Positions 28,605 to 49,996 of a stretch of DNA of 64,000 bases are shown piece by piece (within the stretch, counting starts at the first letter, position 1; every line of letters begins with the position of its first letter). Under the pieces are notes generated by a model. It did no database searches, had not been told where the DNA came from, and saw only the letters and a program-made list of their open reading frames with translations. The position numbers and the translations under genes are program-made. Source of the stretch: an uncultured Actinomycetes bacterium (lineage in GTDB: Bacteria > Actinomycetota > Thermoleophilia > UBA2241); assembly GCA_963845355.1 (NCBI GenBank), contig CAWJRV010000028.1, forward strand, positions 1,427 to 65,426, read 5' to 3'.

Positions 28605-28621
28605 GGTTTCGGCGGAGTGCC

Positions 28622-29891
28622 TTACGACGCTCCGTCTACCGGCGCCGACAGGGCCGTTTCGAGGCGCTGCACGGCGTCGTCCTGCATCGACGGCAGGACG
28701 TGCGAGTACGTGTCCAGCGTGATCGCGATGGTCGAGTGCCCCAGCATCTCGCTGACGACCTTGGGATGGACGCCTTGCCCGAGTAGCAGGGTCGCGCAGG
28801 TGTGCCTGAGATCATGGAAGCGGACCTTGTAGTCGGTCTTGCCGATGAGGCTGCGCCAACTGCTCGCAAAGCTCTCCGGGTTCCAGGGGTCGCCCCTCTC
28901 CCCCGCGAACACGAGACCCTGGTCCCGGTAATCCTTCCCCTGAAGCAATCGCATGGCCGCCTGGTCGCTCTTGTGCTTGCGCAGAGCGGCAGCCGGCCGT
29001 CTCGGACAACATGACGACGCGGCGGCCACGCGAGGTCTTGGGCTCCTTGAACAGGGGTGCGCCGTGTATCCATTGGAGCGATTCGACGCAGCTTAGCGTC
29101 CTTGCGTCTATATCTATGTTGCGCCAGCGCAGCGCGAGCAGTTCGCCGCGCCTCATGCCCGTGTGGATCGCCAGCAGGACTGGTAGGTGCATCCTCGTGC
29201 CCTCCGCCTTGGCGAGCAGAGCACGAACCTGTTGGGCGTCAATCGTCTGCATCGGCTTGCGTGCCGGCTTGGGCGGCTGTACAGCGTCACAGACGTTGCG
29301 CACGACGAGGTTCCACTTCACGGCCCGCTTGAGTGCTTCGCTCAGAACTCGGTGATGATGCAGCACGGTCCTTGGCGAGAGGCCGGTCGGTTGGGGCTCG
29401 GCCTTCGCCCGCGAGCGCCGCTTGCCCTTCGGCTTGGCCACCTTCCGCTGGATGCGCCCGGACTTGAGCGCTTTGGCGTAGTAGCTCTGGACGTGCAGGC
29501 TGGTGAGCTTCGGTAGCAGCACTTCGCCCAGAGCTGGCACCAAGTGCAGCCGCACGATCTGCTGGTAGCGCAGTAGGGTCGCGGGCGACAGGTTCGACTC
29601 ACACGACGAAAGCCACTGTTCGAGGTAGTCGCGCACCTTGAGGCGTTGCGGGTCGATGTACGCGCCCGTCGCAATCTCGTTGAGGATGCGGGCGTGGTAG
29701 TTCTCGGCTTCCGTCTGGAGCCCATGGAACGTGTGTCGGCGCCGGATGCGCTTCCCGTCTGCGTCGTAGCCCAAGTCGACCACGAACGTCCAGACCCCCT
29801 TGCCCCTGCTCTTGATCGGCGCCTTCAACGGGACGCCCGTTGCTGGCGCTTCTGAAGAGGCCAGCACACCGAGACTTGGCGCCACCGTCAT
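28622..29891 (-). pseudogene. int: Tyrosine integrase interrupted by one frameshift (~28991-28997)
   Basis: The N-terminal frame reads KSRGKGVWTFVVDLGYDADGKRIRR...HTGMRRGELLALRW...KTSRGRRVVMLSETA. The C-terminal frame continues AAALRKHKSDQ...FHDLRHTCATLLL...LGHSTIAITLDTYSH (catalytic Tyr). The start may be ATG 29891 or TTG 29828. Confidence 0.8.
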
Positions 29892-30702
29892 CGGCTGGGC
29901 AGAAGCGCTGGCGGCCGTCCGTGACGAGGAACGGGGTGCGGCATGTGTCCAGCTCACAAAGCCTCACGAGTCCATGGTCAGCCCAATCGCCGACGTGAAA
30001 CCAGACGGTCTCAACGAGTGTTCTCGTGCTTGTCAGCCAGCGGAGGCGATTCTCGGGCAGGCTGGGGAAGAGAATCGTCTGAAGACTGCGCGTGTTCGAC
30101 GCGACCAGGTCCGCCACTATCTTCATAGCCAAGCCCGGTGCGTCCACATCGGGGTACATCTCGTTTCTGACTTCGAGGCCAAGAGCCAAGGTGAACCCGA
30201 GTGATGCGTTGGACGTGTCGACGAGGGCGGCCGAGCGCCACTCCGTCTGGTAGCGCGCCAAGACGGCTCCGACCTCCTCGGCAGAGTCGCCCTGGAGTGC
30301 CTCTAGCAGTTCCGTCGCGAAGCGAACCGACCTCGCCTGTGCCAGGAACCACGGCAGGGGGTCGCCTCCCGCCAGTCGACCCACCTCGCCCCTTATCGCC
30401 GCCTCCCTGCTCTCGTCGACCTCGGCCCCAGCCTTGAAGTCGGCCCACTCGTCCTCTAGCAGCGTTGGCACCAGCAACTCGCAGTAGCCGAGCAGGCCGT
30501 ACCTGCGGACGAAGTCACATGCAGACCTCTCGTCGACGACCTTCGACAGGGCGTTAGGCAAGTTGGGCACGTCCTGAGGTCGGTAGGCGCGTCGACGTAC
30601 TTCGTCCGGCTCATAGTTGATGACAAGCCCTTTGACGAACGGCTCGTCGCCCGCTCGCCAAGACACGCGGTCAACCTCAACGTGAGACTTTCTTACGCTC
30701 AT
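29599..30702 (-). CDS. Leftward hypothetical protein ending in a Cys4 (CGNR-like) zinc-finger motif
   Basis: MSVRKSHVEVDRVSW...LCELDTCRTPFLVTDGRQRFCPADDGGAKSRC. The last ~100 codons overlap int and look like filler. A shifted frame gives LQKRQQRASR-stop at ~29825. Confidence 0.5.
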   Translation of the reverse strand: MSVRKSHVEVDRVSWRAGDEPFVKGLVINYEPDEVRRRAYRPQDVPNLPNALSKVVDERSACDFVRRYGLLGYCELLVPTLLEDEWADFKAGAEVDESREAAIRGEVGRLAGGDPLPWFLAQARSVRFATELLEALQGDSAEEVGAVLARYQTEWRSAALVDTSNASLGFTLALGLEVRNEMYPDVDAPGLAMKIVADLVASNTRSLQTILFPSLPENRLRWLTSTRTLVETVWFHVGDWADHGLVRLCELDTCRTPFLVTDGRQRFCPADDGGAKSRCAGLFRSASNGRPVEGADQEQGQGGLDVRGRLGLRRRREAHPAPTHVPWAPDGSRELPRPHPQRDCDGRVHRPATPQGARLPRTVAFVV

Positions 30703-30737
30703 GTCTTGCTATTTCTCTACCGTTAGAAGGACCAATG

Positions 30738-30746
30738 TGCTATAAT
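30738..30746 (+). promoter_or_regulatory. Extended -10 promoter TGCTATAAT of the rightward Cro-like gene, followed by an 11-bp palindrome
   Basis: aaTGTGCTATAATgacc, then GACACcGTGTC at 30759-30769. AAGGGGG ribosome-binding site and ATG at 30797. Confidence 0.55.
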
Positions 30747-30796
30747 GACCTATACAAAGACACCGTGTCAAGAGCAAATGCGAACAAGGGGGCACC

Positions 30797-30997
30797 ATGA
30801 AGACACTCAGGATGAAGCGGATTCTACGCGACTGGAGCCAAGCGGAACTCGCTCGGCAGTCGGGACTCAGCCCGAGCACGGTGTGCCAGATCGAGTCCGG
30901 ACGGTTTCGGCCATACCCTTCGCAACTCGCCAAGATCGCTCGGGCACTCGACGCCTCCGACAACCCCGGCGCTCTGCTTGCTGATGTCGAGCGGTAG
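30797..30997 (+). CDS. XRE-family HTH regulator (Cro/CI-like)
   Basis: MKRILRDWSQAELARQSGLSPSTVCQIESGRF. Confidence 0.8.
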   Translation: MKTLRMKRILRDWSQAELARQSGLSPSTVCQIESGRFRPYPSQLAKIARALDASDNPGALLADVER

Positions 30998-31208
30998 CAC
31001 CGAGGCGTGGACCTGGGACGACTTCCCCGAAGTGCTCCAGCCGCGTCACATCATGACCATCCTCGGAGTCTCCGACGCGACGGTCTACGACCTGAACCAC
31101 AACATGCTGAAGGGCGTGGCTCGCAGGGTCGGACGTCAATGGCGCTACCCCAAGTCGGGGGTGCGCCGGCTGCTGGAGGGCGACATCGTCGCTCAAGTCG
31201 AGGGGTGA
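30984..31208 (+). CDS. xis: Excisionase-type HTH DNA-binding protein
   Basis: LQPRHIMTILGVSDATVYDLNHNMLKGVARRVGRQWRYPKSGVRRLL. Confidence 0.7.
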   Translation: MSSGSTEAWTWDDFPEVLQPRHIMTILGVSDATVYDLNHNMLKGVARRVGRQWRYPKSGVRRLLEGDIVAQVEG

Positions 31209-31804
31209 TCGCCCCGACGCCACTCAAAGCGGCCCGCGCTCGTTGTCTCGACTGCGCCGAAACGCGGACCGACGTTAGCAACTGCGGTGACGCGGACTGC
31301 GCCTTGTATCCGTACCGACTGGGCGTAGGCCGAATCACCCTGCGGATCATCCGCCTGCATTGCCTGGAGTGCTGCGACGGTTCCACACACGAGGTGAAGG
31401 AGTGCCCGGCCGTCTCCTGCCCGCTCCGCTCCTACCGTATGGGTCATCGCCCGACATCTGGCAAGCCCGCTACAGAGGTGCAGAAGGATGGCACTCGAAA
31501 AGGCCCGTCTTGCACTCCACGGGGCTCGAGAACTAGACATCCAGCGCGCGGTAGCTCTTTCTGGGGTGACTGCCCTATGAGGGGTGCTTGCGGCGGAATC
31601 GCGTACGCGGGAACGCAGCTCCGCGCGATCGCCTCGGCGTCCGCGTTGGCGGCGGCTGAAAAGCGGAGAAGTCCGCATCCCCAAGGACCCGTACGGCAGG
31701 GTGTTCGTTGTCTCCGCCGGCTTCCTCCGGAGGCGCTTCGGTCGGTGCGTCCTTCACCGCGATTCGCCGCCGTTCACCACCATATGGACAAACTGGCATC
31801 TTGA
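31205..31804 (+). CDS. Cys-rich zinc-finger protein with two tandem CxxC...C...C-P-L-x-x-Y-R-x-G modules; 3' end uncertain
   Basis: GTG overlaps the xis stop. Contains RCLDCAETRTDVSNCGDADCALYPYRLGVG and HCLECCDGSTHEVKECPAVSCPLRSYRMGHRP. The sequence after ~31470 looks like filler, so a frame change is possible. Confidence 0.45.
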   Translation: MIAPTPLKAARARCLDCAETRTDVSNCGDADCALYPYRLGVGRITLRIIRLHCLECCDGSTHEVKECPAVSCPLRSYRMGHRPTSGKPATEVQKDGTRKGPSCTPRGSRTRHPARGSSFWGDCPMRGACGGIAYAGTQLRAIASASALAAAEKRRSPHPQGPVRQGVRCLRRLPPEALRSVRPSPRFAAVHHHMDKLAS

Positions 31805-31852
31805 CATTCTGAGGCTAATTCTGTGCAGAACCCTGGCCAAACTTGGCGAAAT

Positions 31853-31861
31853 ATGCTATAC
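31853..31861 (+). promoter_or_regulatory. Second island promoter, extended -10 TGCTATACT
   Basis: aaataTGCTATACTgtac lies in an AT-richer stretch ~55 nt upstream of ATG 31915. Confidence 0.45.
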
Positions 31862-31914
31862 TGTACTTGAAAGGGAGTAGTGCTTACTCCATCTTGTCCA
31901 AGGGGGGCCTATTC

Positions 31915-32098
31915 ATGACTGAGACCTACCTGTCCGTGCGCGAGACCGCTTCTCGCCTCAGCCTCTGTCCGGAAACCATTACGGCTGGATCAAGCGGGGC
32001 ATCGTTCCAGCCATTCAGACTCGGGCGGGACCTACCGCATCCCCGAGTCGTTCATCCGGGACTACCCCACCGTGCCGATGGCGGCCGTCGAGGCTTAG
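31915..32098 (+). pseudogene. Excisionase/MerR-like HTH gene with two single-nucleotide frame disruptions
   Basis: Three frames read in succession give MTETYLSVRETASRLSLCPETI | YGWIKRGIVPAIQT | GGTYRIPESFIRDYPTVPMAAVEA-stop. The breaks are at attac (31977-79) and cgggcggg (32024-30). Confidence 0.65.
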
Positions 32099-32338
32099 GT
32101 GCGCAGTGAGTCGGTCGCTGCTGATGCAGTGCGGCGCTGGGCTCAACAGCGCGCCGTTCCACTCGGGGCCGTTGACGGCCTGATGCTCATGATGCTTGAG
32201 CAGGGTTACGACGAGTGGCAGGCGATCGCCGCGCTGCGCCTGATGGAGTCGCATGGACTCATCCGCGTCGGCGCCTCTCAGGAAATCGTCATCACGCGCT
32301 ACGGCGAGGCGCAGCTCGCCGCGACCAGAAACCGCTAG
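32099..32338 (+). CDS. Small hypothetical protein
   Basis: GTG follows the preceding stop directly. 79 aa with coding-like composition (LMLMMLEQGYDEWQAIAALRLMESHGLIRV). Confidence 0.5.
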   Translation: MRSESVAADAVRRWAQQRAVPLGAVDGLMLMMLEQGYDEWQAIAALRLMESHGLIRVGASQEIVITRYGEAQLAATRNR

Positions 32339-32483
32339 CGGGAGACTGTGAAGGGGAAACCATGACCATAAACGCAGCGAGGCCCGGGCGCCGTGGCAAG
32401 CAGACCCGGACCTCATCAAATCTACTTTTCATGATACTCCATCGGAGTCGGTCCGTCAACCAGGGTTGCCCTGCGGGTCCGAC

Positions 32484-33635
32484 ATGAACGGCGAGGTTCG
32501 TATCCCGAAGGACGAGTTAGACGGAGTCCTGAGCTTGTCGGCCGGCGGCAAGATCACCCCGAAGGAACTCCTTGCCGCCCTCACCATCTGTCGCCTCACC
32601 TACGGCCACAACAACCAAGGGCACACGAGTGTCCGAGCCCAGGCTGTCGCCGATCGCACCGGCATGAGCGTGCGGGGCGCGCAGCGGAGGATCAAATCCC
32701 TCGGCGACAAAGGCGTCCTGAAGACCTGGGGCGCAAACAGCAGGGGCGTGCTCGATGTAGGACTGCACCCCGACGTGTCGATAGCGGGTCAGGCGATGCA
32801 GGCGCGCCTGGCGAAGGAGTACGCCGACAGACAGTCCGGAAAGCCCACCCCGTCACTAGCTAGTGACGCAGTACCCCGTCACCAGCTAGTGACGCACCCC
32901 CCGTCAGTAGCTAGTGACGCACCGATGAAGCATTCCTCTAGAAGCACACCCATTGAAACAGTCCCTAGAGAAGGGGACCTCGCTAACGCTTCGGGGGAAA
33001 CCCCCACTCGGGCGACCGTCGAAGCAAGCCCCTGCGCTCCTTGCCCCCTCGTTAGCCCAGGCACGAAAGACGGCACCGGGGAGGAGGCGGAGCCGCACGT
33101 TACGCCGCCGGCTCCCTATCACCAGAGGGATTCCCTCCTCTCTGACGACACGCTCGCCCGGGCGGTCGGCGCCTTCGACCCGGATGGTCGGGTGTCCGCA
33201 AAGGCGGGAAGGGGAGCGATCCTGCGTCTCTGGGTGCGCGTTCTCGACGAGGCGTGGTGCTCTGGATATCAGCGCGCCTCCGACGAACGTCTCGTCGAAG
33301 TTCTTCTGCCGATCATGGAGCGAGTCGGGGCCGAGAAGGCCAAGTACATCCTCCGCGATGACGTGCGCTATCCGGCCTCCTATCTCGACAGCGTTGGCCG
33401 CGACGAGTTGCTTTTCGAGGAGGACGGCGACCTGCGGGAGCTCAAACAGGCCGAGCGTGAATCTGACCGCGACATCGAACGCACAGCCGTGCCCAATGAG
33501 AACGCTAGGAAGCTGGCGGAGTTGGCACGCCAGACGATGGATCGTATGGCGGAAGAGGGCCGCTCCATCTTCGGGCCGCCCGAAGAGGAGCCGGAGTGGG
33601 AGCGCGGTCTGGGTTACTCGATGGGGATGGCGTGA
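32484..33635 (+). CDS. Replication-organiser-like protein (winged-helix N-terminus resembling phage O/replisome organiser)
   Basis: ITPKELLAALTICRLTYGHNNQGHTSVRAQAVADRTGMSVRGAQRRIKSLGDKGVL. Acidic C-terminus. Iteron-like repeats lie inside the gene. Confidence 0.6.
   Translation: MNGEVRIPKDELDGVLSLSAGGKITPKELLAALTICRLTYGHNNQGHTSVRAQAVADRTGMSVRGAQRRIKSLGDKGVLKTWGANSRGVLDVGLHPDVSIAGQAMQARLAKEYADRQSGKPTPSLASDAVPRHQLVTHPPSVASDAPMKHSSRSTPIETVPREGDLANASGETPTRATVEASPCAPCPLVSPGTKDGTGEEAEPHVTPPAPYHQRDSLLSDDTLARAVGAFDPDGRVSAKAGRGAILRLWVRVLDEAWCSGYQRASDERLVEVLLPIMERVGAEKAKYILRDDVRYPASYLDSVGRDELLFEEDGDLRELKQAERESDRDIERTAVPNENARKLAELARQTMDRMAEEGRSIFGPPEEEPEWERGLGYSMGMA
32851..32921 (+). repeat. Three copies of a 16-bp palindrome GTCACTAGCTAGTGAC (+CGCA): candidate origin iterons
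   Basis: cGTCACTAGCTAGTGACgca (32851-70), cGTCACCAGCTAGTGACgca (32878-96), cGTCAGTAGCTAGTGACgca (32902-21). Spacing is 27 and 24 nt. Confidence 0.7.
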
Positions 33636-33937
33636 TGCTGTTCCTGGAGTCGATCCGCCAGCAGAACGGCTGGCCGCGAGTTCAACTCGCCCTCACGGCA
33701 GCCATGGACTACGAGCGTCTTTGCCACCTTGAGGCCGGCGTCGTGTCGCCAACCACGCAGGAGGCCGAGAAACTCGCTGCCGTGCTGAACTACACGGGCT
33801 CCCCGGCGCAACTCTTCACGCCCGTCGTCACGACTACCACGCCGAGTCGGCCGGCGACCAGGACCGAGGCGCCACGGAAGATTCCGCTCAAGGGCGGTCG
33901 GTTGCCCTGGTCGACTTTGAGGACGCCGAGCGCGTAA
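33635..33937 (+). CDS. XRE-like HTH protein (3' end uncertain)
   Basis: ATG overlaps the rep stop (TGATG). IRQQNGWPRVQLALTAAMDYERLCHLEAGVVSPTTQEAEKLAAVLN. Confidence 0.5.
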   Translation: MLFLESIRQQNGWPRVQLALTAAMDYERLCHLEAGVVSPTTQEAEKLAAVLNYTGSPAQLFTPVVTTTTPSRPATRTEAPRKIPLKGGRLPWSTLRTPSA

Positions 33938-34564
33938 TGGAGCACCTGTGGTACCGGATGAAGGGCAACACCACGGACTATGCCGTCTCGCGGTAGCGTG
34001 CTACTCCACCGGTTCGTTACCGGCGCGCGCGCGGGACGGTCGTCCACCACAAGGACGGCGATGGCCTCAACTGCCGCAGAAGAACCTGCGAGTGCTAGCC
34101 GCGCCGCACACGTCCGTACGACAGGGCCGGCGGCAGGTTCTTCGAGCCAGTACAAGGGCGTGACGAAGAGTGGCAACGAGGGAAGACCGTGGCAGGCCCG
34201 CCTCGGGATCGACCGCAAGCACTACTACCTGGGCCGCTACGCTTCCGAGGTGGAGGCTGCCCGAGCCTACAACGCCGCTCAGGCGAAGTTCGTCGGCTTC
34301 ACATCTGGCGCTTACTTCAACGACATTCCGAAGGGATCGCGCTTCGGCCGCATCGTCCTACCAGAGGCGTCGCTGCTACGGCTCAACAATGCTGCCGCAG
34401 AGTACCGGCTTCGAAGCAAGTCCGAGACATCTTATGGCCACGAGGGGAAAGTCGCGGCTCTATTCGCACGGGGGGTGGCTCATGGGGAGTCAGAAGAACA
34501 GGTTTGCGTCGCCAGCCAGGACGTCCGTCGCCATCAGCCCGGTCGCGACAAGCAGGGGCAGTAG
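33871..34564 (+). pseudogene. HNH endonuclease with AP2 DNA-binding domain, broken by about five frame switches
   Basis: Pieces in different frames: IPLKGGR | VALVDFEDAERVMEHLWYRMKGNTTDYAVSR | GSVLLHRFVTGARAG | TVVHHKDGDGLNCRRR | NLRVL | ...SSSQYKGVTKSGNEGRPWQARLGIDRKHYYLGRYASEVEAARAYNAAQAKFVG (AP2). Confidence 0.65.
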
Positions 34565-34567
34565 GCC

Positions 34568-37500
34568 ATGCCGCTAATCGTCGGCGACCTCAACGGCAAC
34601 CCGACCATCGTTGCGCCCCCGCCGAAGAAGAAGAAAGACGACCAAGGCCCCCTCGGCCCACCCACTTCCCGAGACCAGAGACGGTGGCGTCCCCATCGCC
34701 CGTCGCGCCAGCGGCTCCCGCCGCCACGCCGCCTGCCGAAATCCGCATCGCCAACATCGTGCAGGGCTACCATGCCGCCACCGGCCGCATCCCCGCGGCC
34801 GAGAAGATTCACGACGCACTCTCCATCTCCACCGGCCAGGAGGATGCCTTCTACTGGATGCAGCACTTCGCTCCGCTTGGCAATCCGGTAGTGCCGCTCT
34901 CCATCCGGCAGGCCGCCGCCAAGGGCGACTACCTCTCGCCGGGAAAGTTAGACCCGACCATGCCGCCGGATGTAAAGAGTCTGGTGCCCTACAACCAGCA
35001 GACAGTCACGACGCAGACCCCGCAGGAGTTGCTGTATGGCGGCGAGGCGACAGTCGGCCCGAGCCAACAGTTCTTCGCTGGCGGCCCCAATCCGCAGGAG
35101 CAAAGTGCCAAACAGGGACTCCTGAACGTCGTCCACGCCCTGACGCTGCCGACCTACGCCCAGCAGTATCAGAAGAACGTGGCCGACGCTGCGCTGTCGA
35201 AGTGGCCCGCCCTCAAGCCGCTGGGCCAACTCCTCGCCATCCCCACGTCCACGAACTTGCAAGACGCCATGAACGTCGGCGTGCTGAAGAACTACCTCGA
35301 TTCGCGCGGCTTCAGTGGAGCGCTCACCTCACCGAGCGGTACGCCGCAGTACATCGGGCCGCTGTCTGCTCCGTTCAAGAACACGGCCAAGCTCAACAAC
35401 GCGATCCGCACCTACGTCTTCTACCACGACCTCGCTCCCGCTTTGAGCGGCGACCTCAACGCCGAGACGGAAGCCGGCGCCACGGGGATGCTCCAGTCGG
35501 GCGAGTCCGTCGTCGACTATGTGCGCAACATGCCGGGATCAGACGAGGACCACAAGAATCTCGTCTACCTCTGGTCGTTCACCTCCCGGCCCGCCGACAT
35601 GCCCGCCGGGGCCTTCGCCGAGTGGTATCACGCCAAGTATCCGTCGCTCACTCCCGCCATCGTCCAGCAGCAACTCGCGCAGAAGAACACCAACAACCTG
35701 TCGGACATGAGCGCTATCCCCGACGACGTAAAGCAGGCGTTCTCCTACATCAACGCCAAACTTCCGAGGGACTGGCAGAGCGCCAATAGCGATGTCGGCA
35801 AGGCAGCGAACTCCGTCGTCGGCTTCATGGTGCGCCCACTATCGGATGTCTTGCAGGGCAACATCCGCGAGATCGGACCCGGAGCGCAGGGCAAGGTCGT
35901 CGGCCACATCAAGGTCGACGGCATGGTCCCGGCTCAGTTCGTGGCCCAGACGGTCAACTACGCCCTCAGCGTGCCCGAGCGCCAGATCGCCGCCCAGGTC
36001 TACGCCACTCTCGGCCTGTATCGCATGGCGAACGGCGACGAGAAGCTGAATCAGGTCATCAGCCAAGCGGCCAGCCAGATCACCCAGACCAAGGTGACGC
36101 CGGGCCAGGAGTTCGTCAAGGCAGTCGGCCTCGACCCGGTCAACCAGAACTGGCTCGCCTGGATGGGCGACCAAGCCTCGATGATCGCCGCTGGGTCCGT
36201 TTATGACGCCGCCGGGAAGGCCCTCGTCTCCGGCGCGCTTGACACCGACGCCGCCCGCGCCATCGCCGGGAGCGTCGGCATCAAGACCGACGCTCAGGTC
36301 ATCGCCTCTCTGAACGCTGTCGAGGACCCACAACTGCGTCAGTTCGCCATGCGCCTGCACTACGACGCCTGCTCGCCGAGCGAGTCCGCGCACTGGTCCA
36401 CGCTGGGCACCAACCCCGACGACATCGCGGTAGACCCGCGAGTGTCGGCGGCGACATCCTCGCCCCATTGGCGCGGGCCGTCCTCGCCGAGTCTAGCGTC
36501 CACATGGAAGCTACGGGCCTTCCAAAGCGAAGATGCCCCGGCCTTGCAGCGCGCCTTCCACCTCTCGACCATGGACGCATCGCCGGTCGACCTGACCTCG
36601 ACCAGCCGCGCCGACATCCAGACCTTCCAACATCTGCTACACCACGGCTATGAGGTCAAAGACGCGATGGCCTGGGGCGCCAAGATGACGCAGGCCATGA
36701 TCGACGACGCCAAAGCCGCGACTCCCGCCGAAGGAGAGGCGGCCCCGGCGCGCCAGTTCGCCAATGCCTCGAAGGTCAAGGCCGACCTCGAACAGGAGAT
36801 TGCCGATCACTATCGCTGGGACGAGAAGCCCAGCACCGACAACCCCGCCGGCGTCGTGCGGCAGCCCTCAGCGAAATTCATCCAGGCCATCAAAGACGAC
36901 CCGCTCATCGGACTCAACTGCGAGGACCCCGCGCGCCCCAGCTTCTACGACGAGTACCAGCACTTCGACCAAGCCCTCCAGAAGCACTACTCCACGCGCT
37001 TCGGCCCAAACCGCATGTATGCGCCGACGCTCGACGAGAACGGCCAAGTCATCGAAGGATCGAAGGCCCCTACCCCCACGACGCGCACCAACCAGACCGC
37101 GCGACTGGCCGACATCGACCGCAAGATAACCGCTCTGCGCCGCAGGGCGTCCTTGCAGAGCGAGTTCGACGTCACGGGCGCCACGCCGGAATGGGGAACC
37201 GCGACCAAGCCGAACCCCAAGGGCTACGTGCTGGGTGCGGACCAAACCATGCGCGCCCCGGCCCCGAAAGAGAACCTTCTGGCACAGGCCAACCCCGCGA
37301 CGACAGAGGTGCAGTTCAGCCCCGACGAGTTGCGGGCCGAGCGCGAGGACCTGCTGCTGCGCCAGAAGGAAAACGCCAAGGTCGGCGAGTCGTTCCACAG
37401 CCAGAAGACCGTTGACTCAGACCAGCCTTACACCGACGCCGAGCTCTGGCACCACATCCGAGACTCTGGCGGCATCAAGCCAGACGACGCCTACAAGGAC

Positions 37501-37839
37501 TCGCACGTCACCGGCCGCGAGAACACGGCGGCCTACAAGGGCCTCGCGCGCAAGGGCGGCCAGCCCATCGACGAACTCGCCAGCGACATCGCCGCCAACT
37601 TCCCGCACTTCGGCATCCGCAACGCCGACGACCTGCGCGAGTGGCTCGACAACTACAAGCCGCCGGCCAAGGAAGCGTCGACAGCCGAGCGCGACATCTA
37701 CGGAACCAAGGCGAGCCAAGACCCGCGTATCTGCGGTGCAGAAGGCGCTCTCTGCCGCCCAGAAGGCAGATACTCCCGAGTCCAAGCTCGCCGTCGTCTC
37801 CAGGGCCATCGACAAGATAGACATGACCCATGTGACTGA
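34568..37839 (+). CDS. Giant island protein, segment 1 (no recognisable domain)
   Basis: Sensible sequence in the 34189-37839 ORF from ~34690 (AEIRIANIVQGYHAATGRIPAAEKIHDAL...). The start is either ATG 34568 (MPLIVGDLNGNPTIVAPPPKKKKDD, another frame, tightly following the previous stop) or GTG 34684. Confidence 0.6.
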
Positions 37840-41915: not shown

Positions 41916-41971
41916 TTGAACCGACCACAGAGCATGAACGAGGAGGTCAGCATGACTGAGGAATCCGACTA

Positions 41972-42834: not shown

Positions 42835-43014
42835 CCGGAGGGGGGCGCGAGGGGTCGCAGTCGTGCCGAAAAACTACCGATAGCAGTTTCGACAAGGGTA
42901 GACTAACGATTGCGAGGAAGTATTTCAGTCAAGGCTGCAATCCTCCGATTAGTGGTATAAGAAAGCGTCTGGAACGCTCGTGCGATGGAATGCGACACAT
43001 GGACAGAGGGCACC

Positions 43015-43221
43015 ATGACGCATGCACAGACAGAGCGTTTGGCACAAGACATCAGCAAGCATAAGGGCCAGTGGGTTCTCGTTAAGGGAACTCGAGTCGT
43101 TGCTGCTGCGCCAAGCGTCAAAACTGCAATCAACAGCCTCCCCCAGAAAGATCGAAGTAAGGTTCGCGCTCAGTTCTGCCCGAAAGAAGACTACACGGGT
43201 TCGTCTTTTTCCGCGCTCTAG
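43015..43221 (+). CDS. DUF5678-like small protein
   Basis: MTHAQTERLAQDISKHKGQWVLVKGTRVVAAAPSVKTAINSLPQKDRSKVRAQFCPKED. Lies in a lower-GC stretch. Confidence 0.6.
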   Translation: MTHAQTERLAQDISKHKGQWVLVKGTRVVAAAPSVKTAINSLPQKDRSKVRAQFCPKEDYTGSSFSAL

Positions 43222-43585
43222 GTGCGGCTTCCCTCTCTCCGATTCCGACGCCCACCGGCCGCGTGGAAACACGCGTGTCGACGTCGCTTTCCGGGACGAT
43301 CCTGACGGCGTTCCGTACATGGCCCTCGTTGATTCCGGGTCGATACGAACGATCGTGCCAGCATCCGCGCTCGAGGGAATCGACATCGGCGAGCCGCTTG
43401 ACCGCATCGACAGGCTTTGTTTCGCCGTCTGGCAGCTTGACCGCGTTCCGATACATCGCCTCGACATGCGCATCGTCGCGCCGGCGCCGTGGGATGACAT
43501 CGAGCTCCCGGATGTTCCGGTGGCGGTTGCGGATGCCGACTTCCCTTCATCGTCCTTGGGTCCACAGCCCTTACCCACGTGGTAG
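43222..43585 (+). CDS. Retropepsin-like (clan AA) aspartic protease, probably with an early frame disruption
   Basis: PYMALVDSGSIRTIVPASALEGIDIG has the D-S-G active-site context. No in-frame start exists. GTG 43222 follows the upstream stop directly but in the neighbouring frame. Confidence 0.5.
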
Positions 43586-43741
43586 TCCTTCTGCGAGACG
43601 CGGACCAGCGACTTCACCTGAAGTCGACAGAGGCGTTCGCCAGGCCCGGCACCACGCGACGCCACATTCTGATGCGGTGCGGTGCCCGTGACGACGAAGC
43701 CGCTCCTCTGAGCCGGCCCCGCATCCGTGCGGTAGCTGCGC

Positions 43742-44251
43742 TCAGAACCGCGAGACGACGATGGCGGCAACCTCGAAAGCTATCCCCACGACGATGTACT
43801 TGAAGGCCCGCCAGCCCCGACGAAGTGTTCTCTGCGCTCCCTGTTCAGGCTGTCGGCAAGCGCCTTGGAAGCGTCCTCCTCCATTGCGACCATGCCGCCT
43901 CGTAGGTCACGCAAGGACTGCCAGATGGCCTTGATCTTCAGCGTCCGTGTCGGGATAGGAGACACTGAGGGTGAGGCTGGCTGACCCGGTGATGGTCCCG
44001 ATACGCCCCGTGGCTGCCAATCTAATGTTTCGTGGCGGAGCTGGCCTCCGCCATAGCCACGACCAAAGTCTTCTCAGCCACCGCCAGGACGCCGAACACA
44101 TTCGCGTAAGCGCACTCATCAGGCGTGCCCAGAACTGCCGCCCTCGCGACCGGACCGCTGACCACACGCCCTCCTCAATCAACCCGTCGGCAGCGCCGGC
44201 GGTGAGGAAGACGAGGCTAATGATGCTCAGTACGAAGGCGGGCCACGACAT
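43742..44251 (-). pseudogene. Two small membrane-protein ORFs with frame disruptions
   Basis: MSWPAFVLSIISLVFLTAGAADGLIEEGVW | ...GTPDECAYANVFGVLAVAEKTLVVAMAEASSATKH-stop (~44022). Then VSPIPTRTLKIKAIWQSLRDL...NRERREHFVGAG | WRAFKYIVVGIAFEVAAIVVSRF-stop (43742). Confidence 0.4.
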
Positions 44252-44459
44252 GGGCCGAGTGTCTACCAGCCGCAGACAGCGAAAGGGCCGCCCTTGGACG
44301 GCCCCTCGCCGGCGTGCGCCTGGTCACTGTCTCCCCGCGCGTCCGCAGTAGCGTAGCTTCCTGCCGCGCAGCCTAGCGACCATCCGTCTGCCCCAACAAG
44401 GCCGCGTGACCCCATTTCGGTTGACGTTCGCCTCGCACGCCCGCAACCGGCCCACTCGT

Positions 44460-46045
44460 CTACAGCTTGGGGAAGCTGCGGGCTGAGATGACGCGGTCGT
44501 ACTTGCCCGAGCCCATGCCGAGCGTGATGGTCCACTCTGACCCCTGAGTGTATGTGGTGACTGTCGTATACCCCGGAGAGTATGTCGTCGAGGAAGATGA
44601 CGAGGTGGAAAACGCCAGCGGGTCACGCGACCTCACACACTGCAGAGTGGTGAGGAAGTCGCGCGTGTAGCTGTTCCAGTCCTTACCGACGCAGTCCCAG
44701 GCGATATAGCTTCCCTCGGCAACCTTGTTGATCGTGGTCCTGCTTTTCGCTCGGACGTAAAACGCCAGGACTGGGGTGTCCGAACCCCCGGCCGGCGTCA
44801 AGATCACCATCGCATCAATCGCCATTGGGTCCTTGATGACAAGTTTCCCCATCCCGTCGCGCATGTGTCTACGCAGAATGTCTCCGTTGGCTAGCCGAAT
44901 TGGCTTGACCACCATGACCGTCGTCGCAGCGTCACCCGCTCGGAGCTTGCAGAGGCCGGGCGACGCCACTGTGACCGTGTAGGTGAGCGGTAGATTCTGC
45001 CCTGGCGCGACCTCGGCAGGACGCGCGCCGGCCTCTTTGCCGTTGGTCTCAATGGTTCCGGGGAAAGTCGGCGAGACGTCTCCGAGGTTCTTGACCGAGG
45101 CGGTCACGATGATGTCTTCGCCTACCGAAAAGACCCCCGACACGGAATGTGGCAGAGCTTCGCCGACCTCTTCGGTTCGAGCGATTGCCTTGAGTCCGCT
45201 GACATGGAATGTGGCCGGGCGAAGTGCGACCGCGGCAATCTCAGTGCCGCCGAGAATCAGCAGATGATGGCCACGCGACGTACCGCTGGGAACGGGAAGG
45301 TCGACAGACCGCGTCTGCCCAGCCGAGAGAGGCAGCTGCATGTCAGCCTGCTTGATGCCATCGAGGGCATAGGAGCCCGTGTAGGTGCCGGCGAACAGGC
45401 CGTCGTTCTTCACCTTGACGGTCAGCGTTGGCGCAGCACCGAGGATCACGCGCTTGTCGCTGGGGACGACAACCCGGTAGTGGGGCATCCACCACAGCAC
45501 GGCCGCAAAGACGATGGAGGCCGCGAGGAGCGACGCGACGGTCGCCGCAAACCGCTTGCGGGATGTCAACTTGGCCAGACCCCACAAGAGCGACGCGACG
45601 AGTACCGCAGCCAGCAGCGTGAACGCAATGCCGACACCGTTGCGGACCGAGGCTCCCCACCCACGGCGAACCAGACTACGATTGCGAAGACTGCAATCGC
45701 AACCACTGCTCGCCAGACCCAACGCCAGCCGCTAAGGCCACCTCCAGACAACGCTGCTGGCGGTGCGACGAGCGACGGAGGGGTCGCAGCGCCAGTGGGC
45801 GCTGGGCCGCCCTGATGTGGGACTGCATGAGCGGGAGGACGGGGCGCGGCTGCTACCTGGATCACCCACTCAAGCAGACCCTCGCGCGCCCAGTCGACCT
45901 GGCCCAGAGCGTCGTAAGTCAGGACGTCCTGGGCCGTGATGGGGCCATGGCCTTGAAGGATGAACTGGTGGCGGGTCTCGTCGTAGGTGATGGTGCTGCC
46001 CGACCAGCTCGTCGTTTGATTGAAGACCGCGACAAGCAAACTCAT
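44460..46045 (-). CDS. Large membrane protein: cytoplasmic N-domain, Pro-rich linker, TM helices, extracellular Ig/CARDB-like repeats; one frame switch (~45645-45665)
   Basis: The 159-aa ORF (MSLLVAVFNQTTSWSGSTITYDE...AIVVWFAVGG) continues in sense into the 420-aa ORF (GASVRNGVGIAFTLLAAVLVASLLWGL...) across a G-run. Confidence 0.55.
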
Positions 46046-46169
46046 GTTGACCCCCCGGTCGACCAGTCGAGTCTACTACGAATCAAAAGCGGCGAAGAAA
46101 CCAGCAAAGAGGATGGTCCAGGCGGCCACAAAAGCCACCGAACCCCAGACCAACGCTGCGGAGCCGAAG

Positions 46170-46907
46170 CTAGACTGTCCGCGCCTCGACGTAGAGGTCG
46201 TTGCGGAGCAGGTAGCGCACGCGACTCTGGATACCAGCGGCCGCCCCGACGCGTCGTCACGCCGGCATCGTTCAAGCGCTGGCAGATGGTCCGCAGGCTA
46301 AGTCCGTCTTGTGACCACTCTTGAACTTGGGCGACCGTCGCCAGTTCGCCCGCATGAGCCTCCAGGAGCCCGTCTGAGCGCGTGTATCCGTACGGCGTTG
46401 GTCCGTAGGCCCGCAGGTGCTTCTTCTTGTGTGCGAGGGCGGCCGTCGTGCGCTCGCTGATCAGCGCGCGCTCGAACTCGGCAAAGCCGGCCAGCATGGT
46501 CAGCATCATGCGTCCGGTGCTGCCGGCCGTGTCGATCGCCGCGCCGCCCATGTCCACCAGGTGCAGCGCCACGCCGGCGGCGTTCCAGCGCTCGGTAAGG
46601 ATCAGGGCGTCGGCAGCGTTGCGGAATAGTCTGTCAAGCTTGTAGGCGACGACGTGCTGGGCCTTGCCGGCCGCGATCAGCTAAGCAGCTCCGCGCCGCC
46701 GGGCCGCGTGTGAAGGTGCTTGTAGGCGCTCACGCCCTCGTCGCGGATCGTCGCTGCGACCTCGAAGCCGCGCATCGTGCAGTAGGCCCTCAGGCGCTCT
46801 TCTTGGGCTTCGAGGGAGACGCCGTGGCGCGCCTGCTCGTCGGTCGAGACGCGCACGTAGAGCACGGCTCTGTCTGTCGCGGTGATCTTCATCGCGCCCC
46901 CCTTCAC
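46170..46907 (-). pseudogene. Serine recombinase (resolvase domain + start of recombinase domain), two frame switches and truncated
   Basis: MKITATDRAVLYVRVSTDEQ (catalytic Ser) ...GAELL | LIAAGKAQHVVAYKLDRLFRN...GRMMLTMLAGFAEFERALISERT...GGRWYP | SRVRYLLRNDLYVEARTV-stop. No zinc-ribbon or coiled-coil part follows. Confidence 0.7.
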
Positions 46908-47353
46908 AGCACACTCTTGAGGTAGTCATCTAGCACCGATTGCAGGATGAGGCGCTGCTTGCCGGTCGCGTTGCGCAGACAGCGAAGTGTGCCGTCGTCG
47001 CACCAGCGCCGCACGGTCATCGGGCTGACCTCGTAACCTCGCTCGGTGAGATAGGCGGCGGCTTCTGCCGTCCTGAGCGTCTGCTCGTTCGGTGACGAGA
47101 CCCGACTTCTGGACCTCGCCCAGAACTCCTCAAGCGCGCTCACGGGGATGCGCCGATGCTTGTACCCGATGGCGCCGCGCTCCTCGCGGACCCGCTGCAA
47201 GACCTCGGGCGGTGGCACGCAACGCAGCTTGCCTTCCTCGCAGAGCGTCTGGATGGTGCGCAGGTTGATGTCCTTGAGGCCGCGCTCCCTGAGGATCTGA
47301 AGCGCCTCAGTGGTCGTGTAGGGTTTCCTGCTGTTCGGCTTCCTGGCCGCCAC
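46904..47353 (-). CDS. Double excisionase-type HTH protein (possible recombination directionality factor or regulator)
   Basis: Two HTH modules: YTTTEALQILRERGLKDINLRTIQTLCEEGKLRCV and LRTAEAAAYLTERGYEVSPMTVRRWCDDGTLRCL. Its stop overlaps the recombinase GTG as GTGA. Confidence 0.7.
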   Translation of the reverse strand: MAARKPNSRKPYTTTEALQILRERGLKDINLRTIQTLCEEGKLRCVPPPEVLQRVREERGAIGYKHRRIPVSALEEFWARSRSRVSSPNEQTLRTAEAAAYLTERGYEVSPMTVRRWCDDGTLRCLRNATGKQRLILQSVLDDYLKSVL

Positions 47354-47378
47354 GCCCGCACCCCTTCGGTCGGTCTCT

Positions 47379-47417
47379 CTGCTGACAGCAGCATATACCT
47401 CTGCCCGTAACAGTCAA
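47379..47417 (-). promoter_or_regulatory. Sigma-70-like promoter (TTGACT-16 nt-TATGCT) with an overlapping 13-bp palindrome
   Basis: The minus strand reads ggtgTTGACTgttacgggcagaggtaTATGCTgCTGTCAGCAGagag. CTGCTGtCAGCAG overlaps the -10/TSS. AAGGGG ribosome-binding site and GTG 47353 follow. Confidence 0.45.
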
Positions 47418-47840
47418 CACCGTTAGAGTCGGCCAATAGCAGACTCGTCATGAGCGATCCGGCAGGAGTGGACGTCACGTGCGAAAGGCTGCCCCACCCA
47501 GCGCCGCCGCAACCCCCTCCTGCCTCACTGACAGACATAACTGAGGGACAGAGACACAGATGAGGACAGAGAGAAGTCGGTCTGTATACCCTGTGGGGTA
47601 TATGCAGGGAAGATGCAGCGAGGCGCGCGAGCGCCGAGCTGGGGCTCGCAGATTCGCAGGCTGGACTTTGTCCCGGCCGTGCAAAACGCCGTCGCCTACC
47701 TATTGTGAGCTTGCAAACGGTCCAAACTCCCGCTTAGCGACACAGGCTCGGAAGAGTCTTCCCGCACTCTGCCCTGAGCACGAGAAGGCCCCCCGCCGGC
47801 GTGCGACGAGGGGCTTTCGTGCGGAGCGTTGTGTCAGACG

Positions 47841-48176
47841 CTAGCGCTCGCGACTTCGTCTAGCCTCGGTGTAGTCGCAGATGGTCGGATCGGAGAAGAT
47901 GATCGCGGCCTGGTCGCGCTGCTCGGCGATGTACTTGTCGAGCCAGTCGCCCGGGCGCTGTGCTTCGTGCTCGAGCTCGTGCGCCGCCTCGTGCAGTGCG
48001 GCCGGGGCCACCCGCTCGTCGTGCGTGACTGTTGGTCCCTCGAAGTCGATGAACCACTCGCCCGTGCGCTTGTAGACGACGATCAATTCCTCGACTCCGA
48101 AGCAGTCATCAGTGAAGTCGCCGATCTTGTCGAGTAGACGCTGCTTGCGACGGTCTGTCTGTGCGGTGGTGCCCAT
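47841..48176 (-). CDS. Hypothetical acidic protein
   Basis: Intact 111-aa ORF with coding-like composition (LIVVYKRTGEWFIDFEGPTVTHDERV...). No family recognised. Confidence 0.5.
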   Translation of the reverse strand: MGTTAQTDRRKQRLLDKIGDFTDDCFGVEELIVVYKRTGEWFIDFEGPTVTHDERVAPAALHEAAHELEHEAQRPGDWLDKYIAEQRDQAAIIFSDPTICDYTEARRSRER

Positions 48177-48964
48177 GGTCTCCTCCTTGCTTGATTCTTG
48201 CCTACGACCAGGACACTAGAGGAGCGTGTGCGAGTTGTCAACTACCGACCGTTACAGACAGAGACGAGGCTAGCTCAATGGTTTCAGACCGGCATCCTGA
48301 CTGGTTGACGCTCGCGCCCGGCATGTGTGCCCATGCTCCCATCGTGTCGGTTTCGGCAGACTTTCGGGGAGCGTACCTGTCCGTGTTGCGAACCGCCTTC
48401 GGTGGGACTGTCCGCGTCAGTGCGCGATCGGGATGGCTCGCTGGCGGCTTGCTGGACGAGGCGCGCCTCTACTCGGTACGCCTGCGTCCTGAACCGTTCG
48501 GTTCTGGACAGACAGGCTCGAAGCGTGCGGGACGGCAGCGATGGAGGCAAATCGGGACGGGGTGATGAAGGGGGCGCATTGCAAGGTCGGCAGATCGGGA
48601 CAAGCGGCGGCGTTTCGCACCAGGCGCGCGAATGCGTGCATCGGCATGCGATCACCCGGCATCGCCGCATCCCCTCTTTACCGGATGGACAGAAGGACGG
48701 ATGACAGGATGACCGCAGAGGCGGCTAGAAGCTCGCTGGGCGCACAGGGCGAGCCGTGTGCGTGTTCGTGCCTGCTTGAGCGTGGGACCTGCTCAGGCAC
48801 CTGCTTGGGAGTGCCTGCACGTGCTTGCGATCAGATGCACGACGCGCCGCGTCGCCGGATTGGCGAGGAAAAGGGGTAGGTGCTTTAGTGCGCGCGCGAC
48901 ATATTCGCGGAATTGGGAGCTTAGCCCAAGCGTTTCATAACACCGTCTATCCCATTCTTCTTGC

Positions 48965-49132
48965 TCACGGAGGCGGGATTCGGGAAGTGTGCAGGAGCGT
49001 GGCGCCCCAAGCGAGCCAGCCGGCGGCGAGGAAGGCTTGCGGGAAGCTGCGATCCACGATGCCCCCACAGACGAAGAGGACGCCCAGGATGCAGACGATG
49101 ATGCCGCCGAAATAGAATCCCTCGCGCTGCAT
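48965..49132 (-). CDS. 55-aa two-TM peptide
   Basis: MQREGFYFGGIIVCILGVLFVCGGIVDRSFPQAFLAAGWLAWGATLLHTSRIPPP. Below the ORF-track length cutoff. Confidence 0.4.
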   Translation of the reverse strand: MQREGFYFGGIIVCILGVLFVCGGIVDRSFPQAFLAAGWLAWGATLLHTSRIPPP

Positions 49133-49162
49133 CTCAGCTCATGCGGCGATAGCCGAGGTAGC

Positions 49163-49345
49163 TCAGAATCCACCTAGCAAGAACAGCACCAGGGCGATGG
49201 CGTCGGGATAGTAGAGCGCGTCGGGGCCGAGGGGATGGTTCAGCACGGCGTCGGCGATGACCACCACGCCCCAGAGCGCGATCAGCACGCCCACCGCGAA
49301 CAGCACCTTGCCCCTCATCTCGACCCCCTCATTCTCCATCGCCAT
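49163..49345 (-). CDS. 60-aa two-TM peptide
   Basis: MAMENEGVEMRGKVLFAVGVLIALWGVVVIADAVLNHPLGPDALYYPDAIALVLFLLGGF. Its ATG abuts the methyltransferase stop (TGA-ATG). Confidence 0.5.
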   Translation of the reverse strand: MAMENEGVEMRGKVLFAVGVLIALWGVVVIADAVLNHPLGPDALYYPDAIALVLFLLGGF

Positions 49346-49996
49346 TCACTTCGCGATGACAAAGTAGATCGTCGTGCGCCGAGGGTGGTGCGTCGTGAAC
49401 ACCGTCGCATCCGGCCCAAGGAAGTCGCACAAGCGATCGGTGCTCTCGAACTCGTTGTCGTGCTCCCGATTGCCCTTCCCCCTAGCTTCGGGCGCCACCT
49501 GCGGCGTCGACCCGACGATGTGACCACCCTCTGCGAGTGCGTCCCGCAAACGTGCCATCACCGCCCGCCCGTCCACTGCCGAAAGGTGCTCGATGGCCTC
49601 GAAGAAGCAAATGAGGTCGTACCCGGAGCCAGGCAGGGGTTTCCTGATGTCGGCGCAAGTGAAGGCAATGTTGCTGCGGGAGTGCCGTCGGCGAGCGACC
49701 GCAAGCGCTGCGGGATCACGGTCGAGAGCGTCGATGCTGCCGGCCGTGTCGGCCCAGAAGATATCGCTGAAGTAGCCATCGCCGCAGCAGACGTCGAGGA
49801 CCCTTCCACCCCCGGGAAGGTACAGAGCGAGCCAAGACGCCGCGCTCAATCCAGAAGAGGTTGCGGGGCCATAGCAGCTCGTCGATGCGATGGTCGTACC
49901 AAGTGTGCCTGCCGGCCCTCCACTGTTGTAGCAGGCGCTTCCCGGCGTGGCTGCGCACGACCGTTGCGAACTCGTAGATCTCGACTCCCCCCTCAA
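49346..49996 (-). CDS. Class I SAM-dependent methyltransferase with one frame switch (~49835-49845)
   Basis: GGRVLDVCCGDGYFS (motif I) and YDLICFFEAIEHL. The N-terminal sense (TWYDHRIDELLWPRNLFWIERGV) lies in the adjacent frame. Confidence 0.6.
   Translation of the reverse strand: MRGESRSTSSQRSCAATPGSACYNSGGPAGTLGTTIASTSCYGPATSSGLSAASWLALYLPGGGRVLDVCCGDGYFSDIFWADTAGSIDALDRDPAALAVARRRHSRSNIAFTCADIRKPLPGSGYDLICFFEAIEHLSAVDGRAVMARLRDALAEGGHIVGSTPQVAPEARGKGNREHDNEFESTDRLCDFLGPDATVFTTHHPRRTTIYFVIAK

What the first reader, a model, noticed from the sequence alone, without database searches (positions are those of the whole stretch)
28622..49996. Frame disruptions are confined to the island: at least 20 single-frame switches inside versus none seen in ~42 kb of flanks
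Following protein sense across adjacent ORF-track fragments shows frame switches in these genes:
- integrase (~28991-28997)
- excisionase-like HTH (31977-79 and 32024-30)
- HNH-AP2 (about five switches between 33895 and 34110)
- the giant gene (~34655-34690, 37700-37720, 40378-40390)
- the 41972-42834 gene (about five)
- the retropepsin-like gene (~43225-43260)
- the small membrane ORFs at 43742-44251
- the 44460-46045 gene (~45645-45665)
- the serine recombinase (~46678-86 and ~46215-25)
- the methyltransferase (~49835-45)

Where the expected codons can be guessed, the lesion is a +/-1 change in a short homopolymer (ATT-TAC read as attac, CGG-GGC read as cgggc). I saw no premature-stop substitutions. 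Every host gene I could read is a single open frame, including the 647-aa PknB, the 711-aa GH9 and the 576-aa kinase.

Either the element is a recently and heavily decayed cryptic element, or the region is an unpolished multi-copy or heterogeneous sequence in a long-read assembly. The second case would itself imply extra or episomal copies.
Basis: partly seen in the sequence, partly recalled or inferred. Interest (0 to 1): 0.8.

Follow-up and report, generated by a model that had tools for sequence, protein, structure and literature searches.

The report
Frameshift-riddled island: probably assembly errors
A 21.7-kb phage-related island inserted at a serine tRNA gene has at least 24 one-base frame breaks while its flanks have none, and the pattern fits a poorly polished stretch of a long-read assembly better than real gene decay.

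Summary
The island (28514-50270) lies between a 60/61-nt direct repeat of the tRNA-Ser(tga) 3' end. It has at least 24 single-frame switches in 10 genes. Sixteen are backed by homology: single homologous proteins or Pfam/PHROG profiles run straight across the junctions. All about 38 flank genes are intact. Twenty-three end at the same stop codon as their orthologues in related MAGs (metagenome-assembled genomes), and most of the rest give full-length Pfam matches.

Every lesion is a +/-1 shift (16 read as a missing base, 8 as an extra one). About 18 kb of repaired reading frame contains no in-frame stop. Repair restores full-length integrase, excisionase, resolvase and HNH matches and a 2445-aa phage virion-type giant protein. 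Only 7 of 20 junctions lie near a run of 3 or more identical bases.

Indel-only damage at about 1.3 per kb in otherwise pristine genes, ending at the att sites, is best explained by low consensus quality. The likely cause is that few reads carry the island (a minority variant, or a gap filled from long reads). This reading is inferred, because neither reads nor platform are visible. Real recent pseudogenisation is the main rival (about 0.13).

The parts
28422..28513 (+). tRNA-Ser(tga). Its 3' 60 nt (28454-28513) form attL.
   Evidence: ARAGORN; direct-repeat families D2/D5; sequence.
50210..50270 (+). attR, a 61-nt copy of the tRNA 3' end. It has one extra G (GTGGGG versus GTGGG) that would unbalance the T-stem.
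28514..50270 (.). Integrated island of 21.7 kb, 62-65% GC against about 70% in the flanks. It is absent from the orthologous site of relative L002.
28625..29828 (-). Tyrosine integrase with one frame switch at about 28994 (+1).
   Evidence: Pfam Phage_integrase is split 2-74 / 89-169 across two ORFs. After repair it matches 2-169/172 at 98.6 bits. The repaired protein aligns over residues 1-401 in one frame to the L010 integrase at 48.5% identity.
31915..32095 (+). Excisionase-like HTH_17 with two -1 switches, at about 31980 (TTT->TT) and about 32024 (GGGG->GGG).
   Evidence: Three-frame reading. No Pfam hit before repair; HTH_17 1-45/51 at 40.8 bits after repair.
33901..34561 (+). HNH-AP2 endonuclease with four switches, at about 33992 (+1), 34031 (-1), 34074 (-1) and 34136 (-1).
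   Evidence: The repaired protein hits phrog_99 (HNH endonuclease) over residues 45-133. It also hits the HNH_3-AP2 gene of L165 over residues 1-146 in a single HSP.
34568..41915 (+). Giant gene, 2445 aa once repaired, with a C-terminal NlpC/P60 domain. Switches at about 34640-34720 (-1), 37713 (+1), 40387 (-1) and 40829 (-1). Candidate compensated pair at about 36435/36525.
   Evidence: Frames. Homologues of 2100-3225 aa align in one stretch across the 40387 and 40829 junctions and map colinearly to three window frames. The N-terminal KKKK motif and the C-terminal motif are shared with homologues. NlpC/P60. Hidden pair.
41972..42834 (+). Gene downstream of the giant gene (289 aa repaired) with five switches, at about 42038 (-1), 42249 (+1), 42391 (-1), 42591 (-1) and 42681 (+1).
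   Evidence: The repaired protein gives one HSP (residues 44-289, E = 4e-27) to the 316-aa gene that follows the giant gene in phage contig L161.
43222..43626 (+). Retropepsin-like gene with switches at about 43230 (+1) and about 43541 (-1). Judged by protein sense only.
   Evidence: No profile hit.
43745..44251 (-). Small membrane protein gene with switches at about 43941 (+1) and about 43820 (-1). Judged by protein sense only.
44463..46045 (-). Membrane protein of 527 aa with a weak CARDB match. One -1 switch at about 45630.
46173..46892 (-). Serine recombinase (239 aa repaired) with switches at about 46681 (-1) and about 46230 (+1).
   Evidence: Resolvase is split 1-56 / 98-141. After repair it matches 1-141/145 at 125 bits. 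Frames.
49349..49958 (-). Class I SAM methyltransferase with one +1 switch at about 49826.
   Evidence: The Pfam match itself begins just after the junction.
1..28421 (.). Left flank, used as control. All genes are single open frames.
50271..64000 (.). Right flank, used as control. All genes are single open frames. The small ORF 56520-56791 is a conserved separate gene, not a frameshift.

Best explanation
The frame breaks are consensus (assembly) errors, not mutations.

The contig looks like a metagenomic assembly of an uncultured Thermoleophilia-like actinobacterium. The island is a real, tRNA-Ser-integrated, phage-derived element. I infer that its sequence was built from far fewer or less accurate reads than the flanks. 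There are two plausible ways this could happen: (a) only a minority of cells carry the island, and a long-read assembler threaded the contig through a read that had it; or (b) a long-read bridge filled a gap between accurately assembled flanks. With only a few reads over 28514-50270, polishing left about 1.3 single-base indels per kb. Each one breaks a gene call.

What is shown: the lesions are all +/-1; they stop at the att sites; the genes are otherwise intact; homologues elsewhere are continuous.

What is inferred: the sequencing platform, the depth difference, and hence the artefactual origin.
For: 1. The damage is indel-only. There are 24 +/-1 switches and no in-frame stop in about 18.0 kb of repaired frame. 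If substitutions outnumber indels by 5-10 to 1, as in natural decay (a ratio taken from general knowledge of bacterial mutation rates), 4-10 nonsense codons are expected, and P(0) is 0.02 down to 7e-5.
2. Repair restores full-length, high-scoring domains: Phage_integrase 2-169/172, Resolvase 1-141/145, HTH_17 and HNH. It also restores a 2445-aa protein colinear from N- to C-terminus with homologues of 2100-3225 aa.
3. Only 7 of 20 junctions lie near a run of 3 nt or more. From general knowledge, natural 1-nt indels concentrate in homopolymers.
4. The att repeats show no substitutions and one run-length difference, which lies on the island-specific copy.
5. The flanks are clean: 0 frameshifts in about 36 kb of coding sequence, P about 5e-12.
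6. Context. The window's own split gene call sits on a single 65.5-kb contig and has no near relative. Many of the closest genomes are MFD-named MAGs, which I recall to be Microflora Danica Nanopore assemblies. One of them, L001, breaks its contig exactly at this tRNA, which suggests the locus is variable.
7. Indel rates in Nanopore assemblies are known to depend on depth (PMC9262707; bioRxiv 10.64898/2026.04.03.716430).
8. The clustered distribution (index of dispersion 1.83, P about 0.02) fits uneven depth when only a few reads cover a region.
Against: - Neither the platform nor the read depth is visible. If this is a short-read assembly, the explanation fails.
- The element looks incomplete. 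It has no terminase, portal, capsid or tail genes, and the serine recombinase ends at position 55/102 of its Recombinase domain. A defective, decaying element is therefore plausible in its own right.
- The giant gene carries fewer breaks than its length predicts: 4 of 24 breaks against 40% of the coding length, p = 0.02.
- The single att difference could be a natural attP/attB difference.
Confidence: 0.8

Rival explanations
1. Genuine, recent pseudogenisation. The island is a defective prophage remnant no longer under selection, and it has accumulated real single-base indels in nearly every gene.
For: - The lesions are confined to a mobile element that lacks structural genes and has a short serine recombinase.
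- The presumed losses of a base outnumber gains 16 to 8, as in natural spectra.
- The boundaries coincide with the att sites.
Against: - No nonsense codon in 18 kb, against 4-10 expected.
- Conserved domains score full length after repair.
- The att repeats have no substitutions.
- Most indels lie outside homopolymers.
- No IS insertion or ragged deletion was seen inside the recognisable genes.
Confidence: 0.13
2. The consensus collapses several diverged copies of the element (different strains, or integrated plus excised forms), and polishing across the variant reads created the indels.
For: - Many lesions lie outside homopolymers.
- The lesions are clustered.
- Related elements use the same tRNA-Ser site in another MAG.
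- L001 breaks its contig at this site.
Against: - No second copy or variant of the island exists in the window or in any collection searched.
- Higher depth normally improves a consensus.
- This is a sub-case of the artefact reading and cannot be separated from low depth without reads. Its probability is included in the 0.8 given to the best explanation, not added to it.
Confidence: 0.15
3. A biological process that makes indels specifically in the element. Examples would be repeated cleavage by a host defence followed by error-prone end joining, or programmed frameshifting or recoding.
For: Only the island-specificity and the indel-only spectrum.
Against: - Eye inspection of the 20 junction contexts printed showed no shared motif; no motif search was run.
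- Homologues are continuous at the same positions, so the shifts are not conserved recoding sites.
- Up to five shifts in one 860-nt gene is not compatible with efficient recoding.
Confidence: 0.02

Closest known systems
Assembly-induced frameshifts in long-read (Nanopore or PacBio CLR) assemblies at low depth, the problem measured by the IDEEL test
   Same: Single-base indels split genes into adjacent ORFs that match one target. The rate falls with depth, and the genes are otherwise intact (PMC9262707; bioRxiv 10.64898/2026.04.03.716430).
   Different: Here the errors are confined to one 21.7-kb insert in an otherwise clean contig, and most are not in obvious homopolymers. The platform is unknown.
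Cryptic or defective prophages and pseudogene-rich islands
   Same: An integrated element at a tRNA gene with disrupted genes and missing structural modules.
   Different: From general knowledge, decayed elements show nonsense codons, deletions, IS insertions and eroded att sites. Here there are none of the first, and the att repeats are 60/61 identical.
Temperate phages with an SU10-type major capsid protein that encode a giant 2100-3200-aa protein between portal and capsid genes (contigs L161-L166)
   Same: The island shares the giant protein (24-32% identity), the gene that follows it, an HNH-AP2 endonuclease and a tyrosine integrase.
   Different: The island has no terminase, portal, scaffold, capsid or tail genes and is about half their size. 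It may be a satellite-like or partial element.

Membership tests
Long-read consensus/assembly indel artefact | Lesions are single-base insertions or deletions with few or no substitutions. | tested here: met
   24 of 24 junctions are +/-1 shifts, and there is no in-frame stop in 18.0 kb.
Long-read consensus/assembly indel artefact | Repairing the frames gives full-length proteins colinear with homologues. | tested here: met
Long-read consensus/assembly indel artefact | Errors are enriched in homopolymer runs. | tested here: inconclusive
   Only 7 of 20 junctions have a run of 3 nt or more within about 10 nt. Two clear cases are TTT->TT and GGGG->GGG.
Long-read consensus/assembly indel artefact | The affected region has lower read depth, or its indels have mixed read support; the data come from a long-read platform. 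| not testable with these tools
   No reads or assembly metadata are available. The source record is masked.
Decaying cryptic prophage / pseudogenised island | Nonsense substitutions accompany the frameshifts. | tested here: not met
   None observed against 4-10 expected at substitution-to-indel ratios of 5-10.
Decaying cryptic prophage / pseudogenised island | Conserved domains and att sites are eroded. | tested here: not met
   Full-length domain hits after repair. The att repeats are 60/61 identical.
Decaying cryptic prophage / pseudogenised island | Essential modules are lost or truncated. | tested here: inconclusive
   No terminase, portal, capsid or tail genes, and the serine recombinase is short. 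However, the HNH stop codon and the giant-gene start codon abut cleanly, which does not look like a ragged deletion.
tRNA-integrated tyrosine-integrase mobile element | An integrase lies next to a tRNA gene, direct repeats of the tRNA 3' end flank the element, and relatives have an empty site. | tested here: met
   A related integrase sits at the same tRNA in L010.
Complete temperate phage of the SU10-capsid type | Terminase, portal and major capsid genes are present. | tested here: not met
   tblastn with the proteins of L161, L162 and L165 finds only the integrase and the gene downstream of the giant gene. Pfam and PHROG scans find no structural protein.
Programmed ribosomal frameshifting | The shift site is conserved in homologues. 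| tested here: not met
   Homologues are single continuous ORFs across the junctions.

The most novel reading that the evidence does not exclude
The indels are real and were made by a process aimed at the element. An example would be repeated host-defence cleavage repaired by actinobacterial end joining, which would silence a freshly integrated phage-derived island by frameshifts alone while leaving host genes untouched.
Probability: 0.03. Interest if true: 0.85.

Novelty: not a real feature. Interest (0 to 1): 0.2.

Why it matters
If this is an artefact, as I judge likely, it matters as quality control. The island's genes should not be annotated as pseudogenes or as about 40 small ORFs. Sharply island-limited frameshifts can also be used as a sequence-only flag that a segment is a low-depth, population-variable insert.

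The repaired island is worth annotating. It is a tRNA-Ser-integrated, phage-derived element that carries a full-length member of an unannotated family of giant (2100-3200 aa) phage virion-module proteins but has no capsid or packaging genes.

If the indels proved real, an indel-only, element-specific inactivation would be a new phenomenon.

Tried and rejected
- Near-identical copies of the island, to serve as a reference: none found. megablast against plasmids and phages found nothing. Exact 45-mer and 27-mer searches of genome and JGI metagenome contigs found nothing. The word-indexed protein search found nothing for the stitched giant protein and only the window's own fragment for P0001.
- First flank screen, using stop-to-stop ORFs of relatives: too noisy in this high-GC DNA, because all six frames are conserved. 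It was replaced by a per-gene comparison of stop positions.
- tblastx of the island against the phage loci was uninformative noise.
- Two apparent flank frameshifts were checked and rejected. ORF 56520-56791 is a conserved separate gene. The MgtE_N/CBS protein 5617-6951 is not followed by a displaced MgtE membrane domain.
- Homology-guided polishing (host genes corrected, orphan genes not) was considered as the cause. It is less likely, because flank genes without close relatives, such as 59908-61410, are also intact.
- No shared sequence motif was seen by eye in the junction contexts, which argues against methylation-motif errors or a site-specific nuclease.
Full report
**What the window is.** The window is high-GC DNA (about 70%) with a 62-65% GC segment from about 28.5 to 50.3 kb. 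A tRNA-Ser(tga) gene lies at 28422-28513. Its last 60 nt (28454-28513) recur at 50210-50270, identical except that GTGGG is GTGGGG in the second copy. A tyrosine integrase gene sits just inside the first repeat.

In the related MAG contig L002 (palsa_645), the tRNA end is followed 12 nt later by the orthologue of window position 51255. The segment 28514-50270 is therefore an integrated element. A further ~1 kb (50271-51254) is also absent from L002.

The closest flank relatives are uncultured Thermoleophilia/Actinomycetes MAGs (86-89% nucleotide identity, up to 95% protein identity). Many carry MFD names, which I recall to be Microflora Danica Nanopore assemblies. The window's own gene call for part of the giant gene (P0001) is a singleton seen on a single contig of 65,462 bp. 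So the window is nearly a whole metagenome-type contig. Its source record could not be retrieved.

**Checking the observation inside the island.** A GC3 phase plot and a codon-model Viterbi path show the coding frame changing within long coding stretches. Anchoring on peptides gave coordinates and the sign of each shift. The count is 24:
- integrase: 1
- excisionase-like HTH_17: 2
- HNH-AP2: 4
- giant gene: 4
- gene 41972-42834: 5
- retropepsin-like gene: 2
- small membrane gene: 2
- 527-aa membrane protein: 1
- serine recombinase: 2
- methyltransferase: 1

A codon-model scan also found a probable compensated pair inside the giant gene at about 36435/36525. Two weaker candidates lie at about 29865 and 31498.

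**Homology support.** Sixteen of the 24 are backed by sequences from elsewhere.
- *Giant gene.* An exhaustive phmmer search with a stitched piece of the giant protein found homologues of 2100-3225 aa at 26-32% identity. Several align in one stretch across the junctions at about 40387 and 40829. In tblastn the same proteins map colinearly to three different window frames. Their N-terminal lysine run and their C-terminal motif match the window's ends, so the repaired gene 34568-41915 is full length.
- *Integrase.* The repaired protein gives Phage_integrase 2-169/172 at 98.6 bits, against 31 and 57 bits for the two halves. It aligns over residues 1-401 in one frame to an intact 432-aa integrase ORF beside the same tRNA-Ser(tga) in MAG contig L010.
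- *Excisionase.* HTH_17 appears only after repair.
- *Serine recombinase.* Resolvase goes from two fragments to 1-141/145 at 125 bits.
- *HNH-AP2.* The repaired protein hits a PHROG HNH family and the HNH_3-AP2 gene of a phage contig across all four junctions.
- *Gene 41972-42834.* The repaired protein gives a single HSP (residues 44-289, E = 4e-27) to the gene that follows the giant gene in phage contig L161, spanning four of its five junctions.

The remaining eight rest on protein sense and codon bias only.

**Checking the flanks.** Twenty-three flank genes (16845-28337, 51253-59324, 62297-63958) align end to end with orthologues in L001, L002 or L155, and the stop codons fall at the same position. 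Two more match only distant relatives. DNA alignment to L001 and L002 shows that indels in coding regions are multiples of three or are locally compensated. Most of the other genes give full-length Pfam domains, for example Amidohydro_1 1-343/345, Transp_cyt_pur 2-440/440, Pkinase plus four PASTA domains, Transpeptidase 1-298/299 and Glyco_hydro_9 1-441/444. Two suspicious spots were checked and cleared. With about 18 kb of island coding sequence and about 36 kb in the flanks, the chance that all 24 events fall in the island is about 5e-12.

**The nature of the lesions.** All are +/-1 shifts: 16 read as a missing base and 8 as an extra base. However, only 7 of 20 well-placed junctions have any run of 3 nt or more nearby, and I saw no shared motif by eye.

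The repaired frames (about 18.0 kb) contain no stop codon. In these codons, 3.3-4.0% of random substitutions would create a stop. If substitutions outnumbered indels by 5 to 10, as in natural bacterial mutation (general knowledge), 4-10 nonsense codons would be expected, and P(0) lies between 0.02 and 7e-5.

The events are moderately clustered (index of dispersion 1.83, P about 0.02). The giant gene has fewer than its share, although the hidden pair reduces that deficit.

**Interpretation.** The damage is indel-only, at about 1.3 per kb. The genes score as intact once repaired. The damage ends at near-perfect att repeats and sits in an otherwise clean contig. This is what a poorly polished stretch of a long-read assembly looks like. 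Nanopore consensus indels fall steeply with depth, and low-depth assemblies show split genes of exactly this kind (PMC9262707; bioRxiv 10.64898/2026.04.03.716430).

The simplest mechanism is that few reads cover the island. Either only part of the population carries it, or a gap between well-covered flanks was bridged from long reads. The island-specific att copy carries the one run-length difference. A related MAG contig (L001) breaks exactly at this tRNA. Both fit a variable locus.

This mechanism is inferred, because I could see neither reads nor platform. I give it 0.8. That figure includes the sub-case in which diverged copies were collapsed into one consensus.

Real recent pseudogenisation gets about 0.13. 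It gains some plausibility from the element's incompleteness. A directed biological indel process gets about 0.02-0.03.

Extra copies would improve the consensus.

**What the island is.** Reading from attL, the island carries:
- a tyrosine integrase and a 267-aa protein (29902-30702) with no family match and a possible CGNR-type zinc-finger C-terminus
- XRE and HTH_17 regulators, and a zinc-ribbon protein
- an excisionase
- a weak replication-initiator-O-like protein, with three iteron-like repeats
- an HTH protein and the HNH-AP2 endonuclease
- the giant protein with C-terminal NlpC/P60, and its conserved downstream partner
- a DUF5678/retropepsin-like pair
- membrane proteins
- a short serine recombinase and a double HTH_17 protein
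- a SAM methyltransferase

Homologues of the giant protein sit between the portal and the scaffold/SU10-type capsid genes of temperate phage contigs of up to 46 kb (the longest are 26-46 kb). The island has no terminase, portal, capsid or tail gene. It is therefore a partial prophage or a satellite-like element. This is real and mildly interesting, but it is separate from the finding.

**Verdict.** The most likely cause is technical. Interest as biology is low (0.2) unless reads show that the indels are real.

Noticed in passing
window 34568-41915; loci L161-L166: The repaired 2445-aa protein belongs to an unannotated family of proteins of 2100-3225 aa. There is no Pfam or PHROG match apart from an optional C-terminal NlpC/P60 domain, and the N-terminus carries a run of 4-5 lysines. 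In phage contigs the gene lies between the portal and the scaffold/SU10-type capsid genes, so it is probably a virion-internal or ejection protein.
   Followed up: partly
window 28514-50270: The island shares the giant gene, its downstream partner, HNH-AP2 and the integrase with those phages. It lacks terminase, portal, capsid and tail genes and is about half their size. It could be a phage satellite or a partial prophage.
   Followed up: partly
L010 11231-14510: Another Actinomycetota MAG has tRNA-Ser(tga) followed by an intact 432-aa integrase ORF (48.5% identity to the repaired window integrase), then XRE and HTH_17 homologues. Related elements therefore reuse the same attachment site.
   Followed up: partly
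L001 (contig end), corresponding to window 28512: The closest relative's contig ends exactly at the 3' end of the tRNA-Ser gene, as expected if this locus is heterogeneous in that metagenome too.
   Followed up: no
window 50271-51254: About 1 kb with host-like GC, including an intact HAD-family hydrolase gene (50579-51256), lies between attR and the point where homology to the empty site of L002 resumes. It is a second, older difference at this locus.
   Followed up: no
window 32843-32921: Three tandem ~26-nt iteron-like repeats (CCCCGTCAnnAGCTAGTGACGCA) lie inside the open frame 32466-33635 (weak replication-initiator-O match), in a stretch with no coding signal. This may be an origin, and the ORF may really be two genes.
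   Followed up: no
window 46173-46892: The serine recombinase is only 239 aa after repair, and its Recombinase domain stops at profile position 55 of 102. It is either a naturally short form or a real truncation.
   Followed up: no
window 36430-36530: A ~90-nt stretch of the giant gene reads better in another frame. It is probably a compensated -1/+1 pair that leaves the long ORF open, so the frameshift count is a lower bound.
   Followed up: partly
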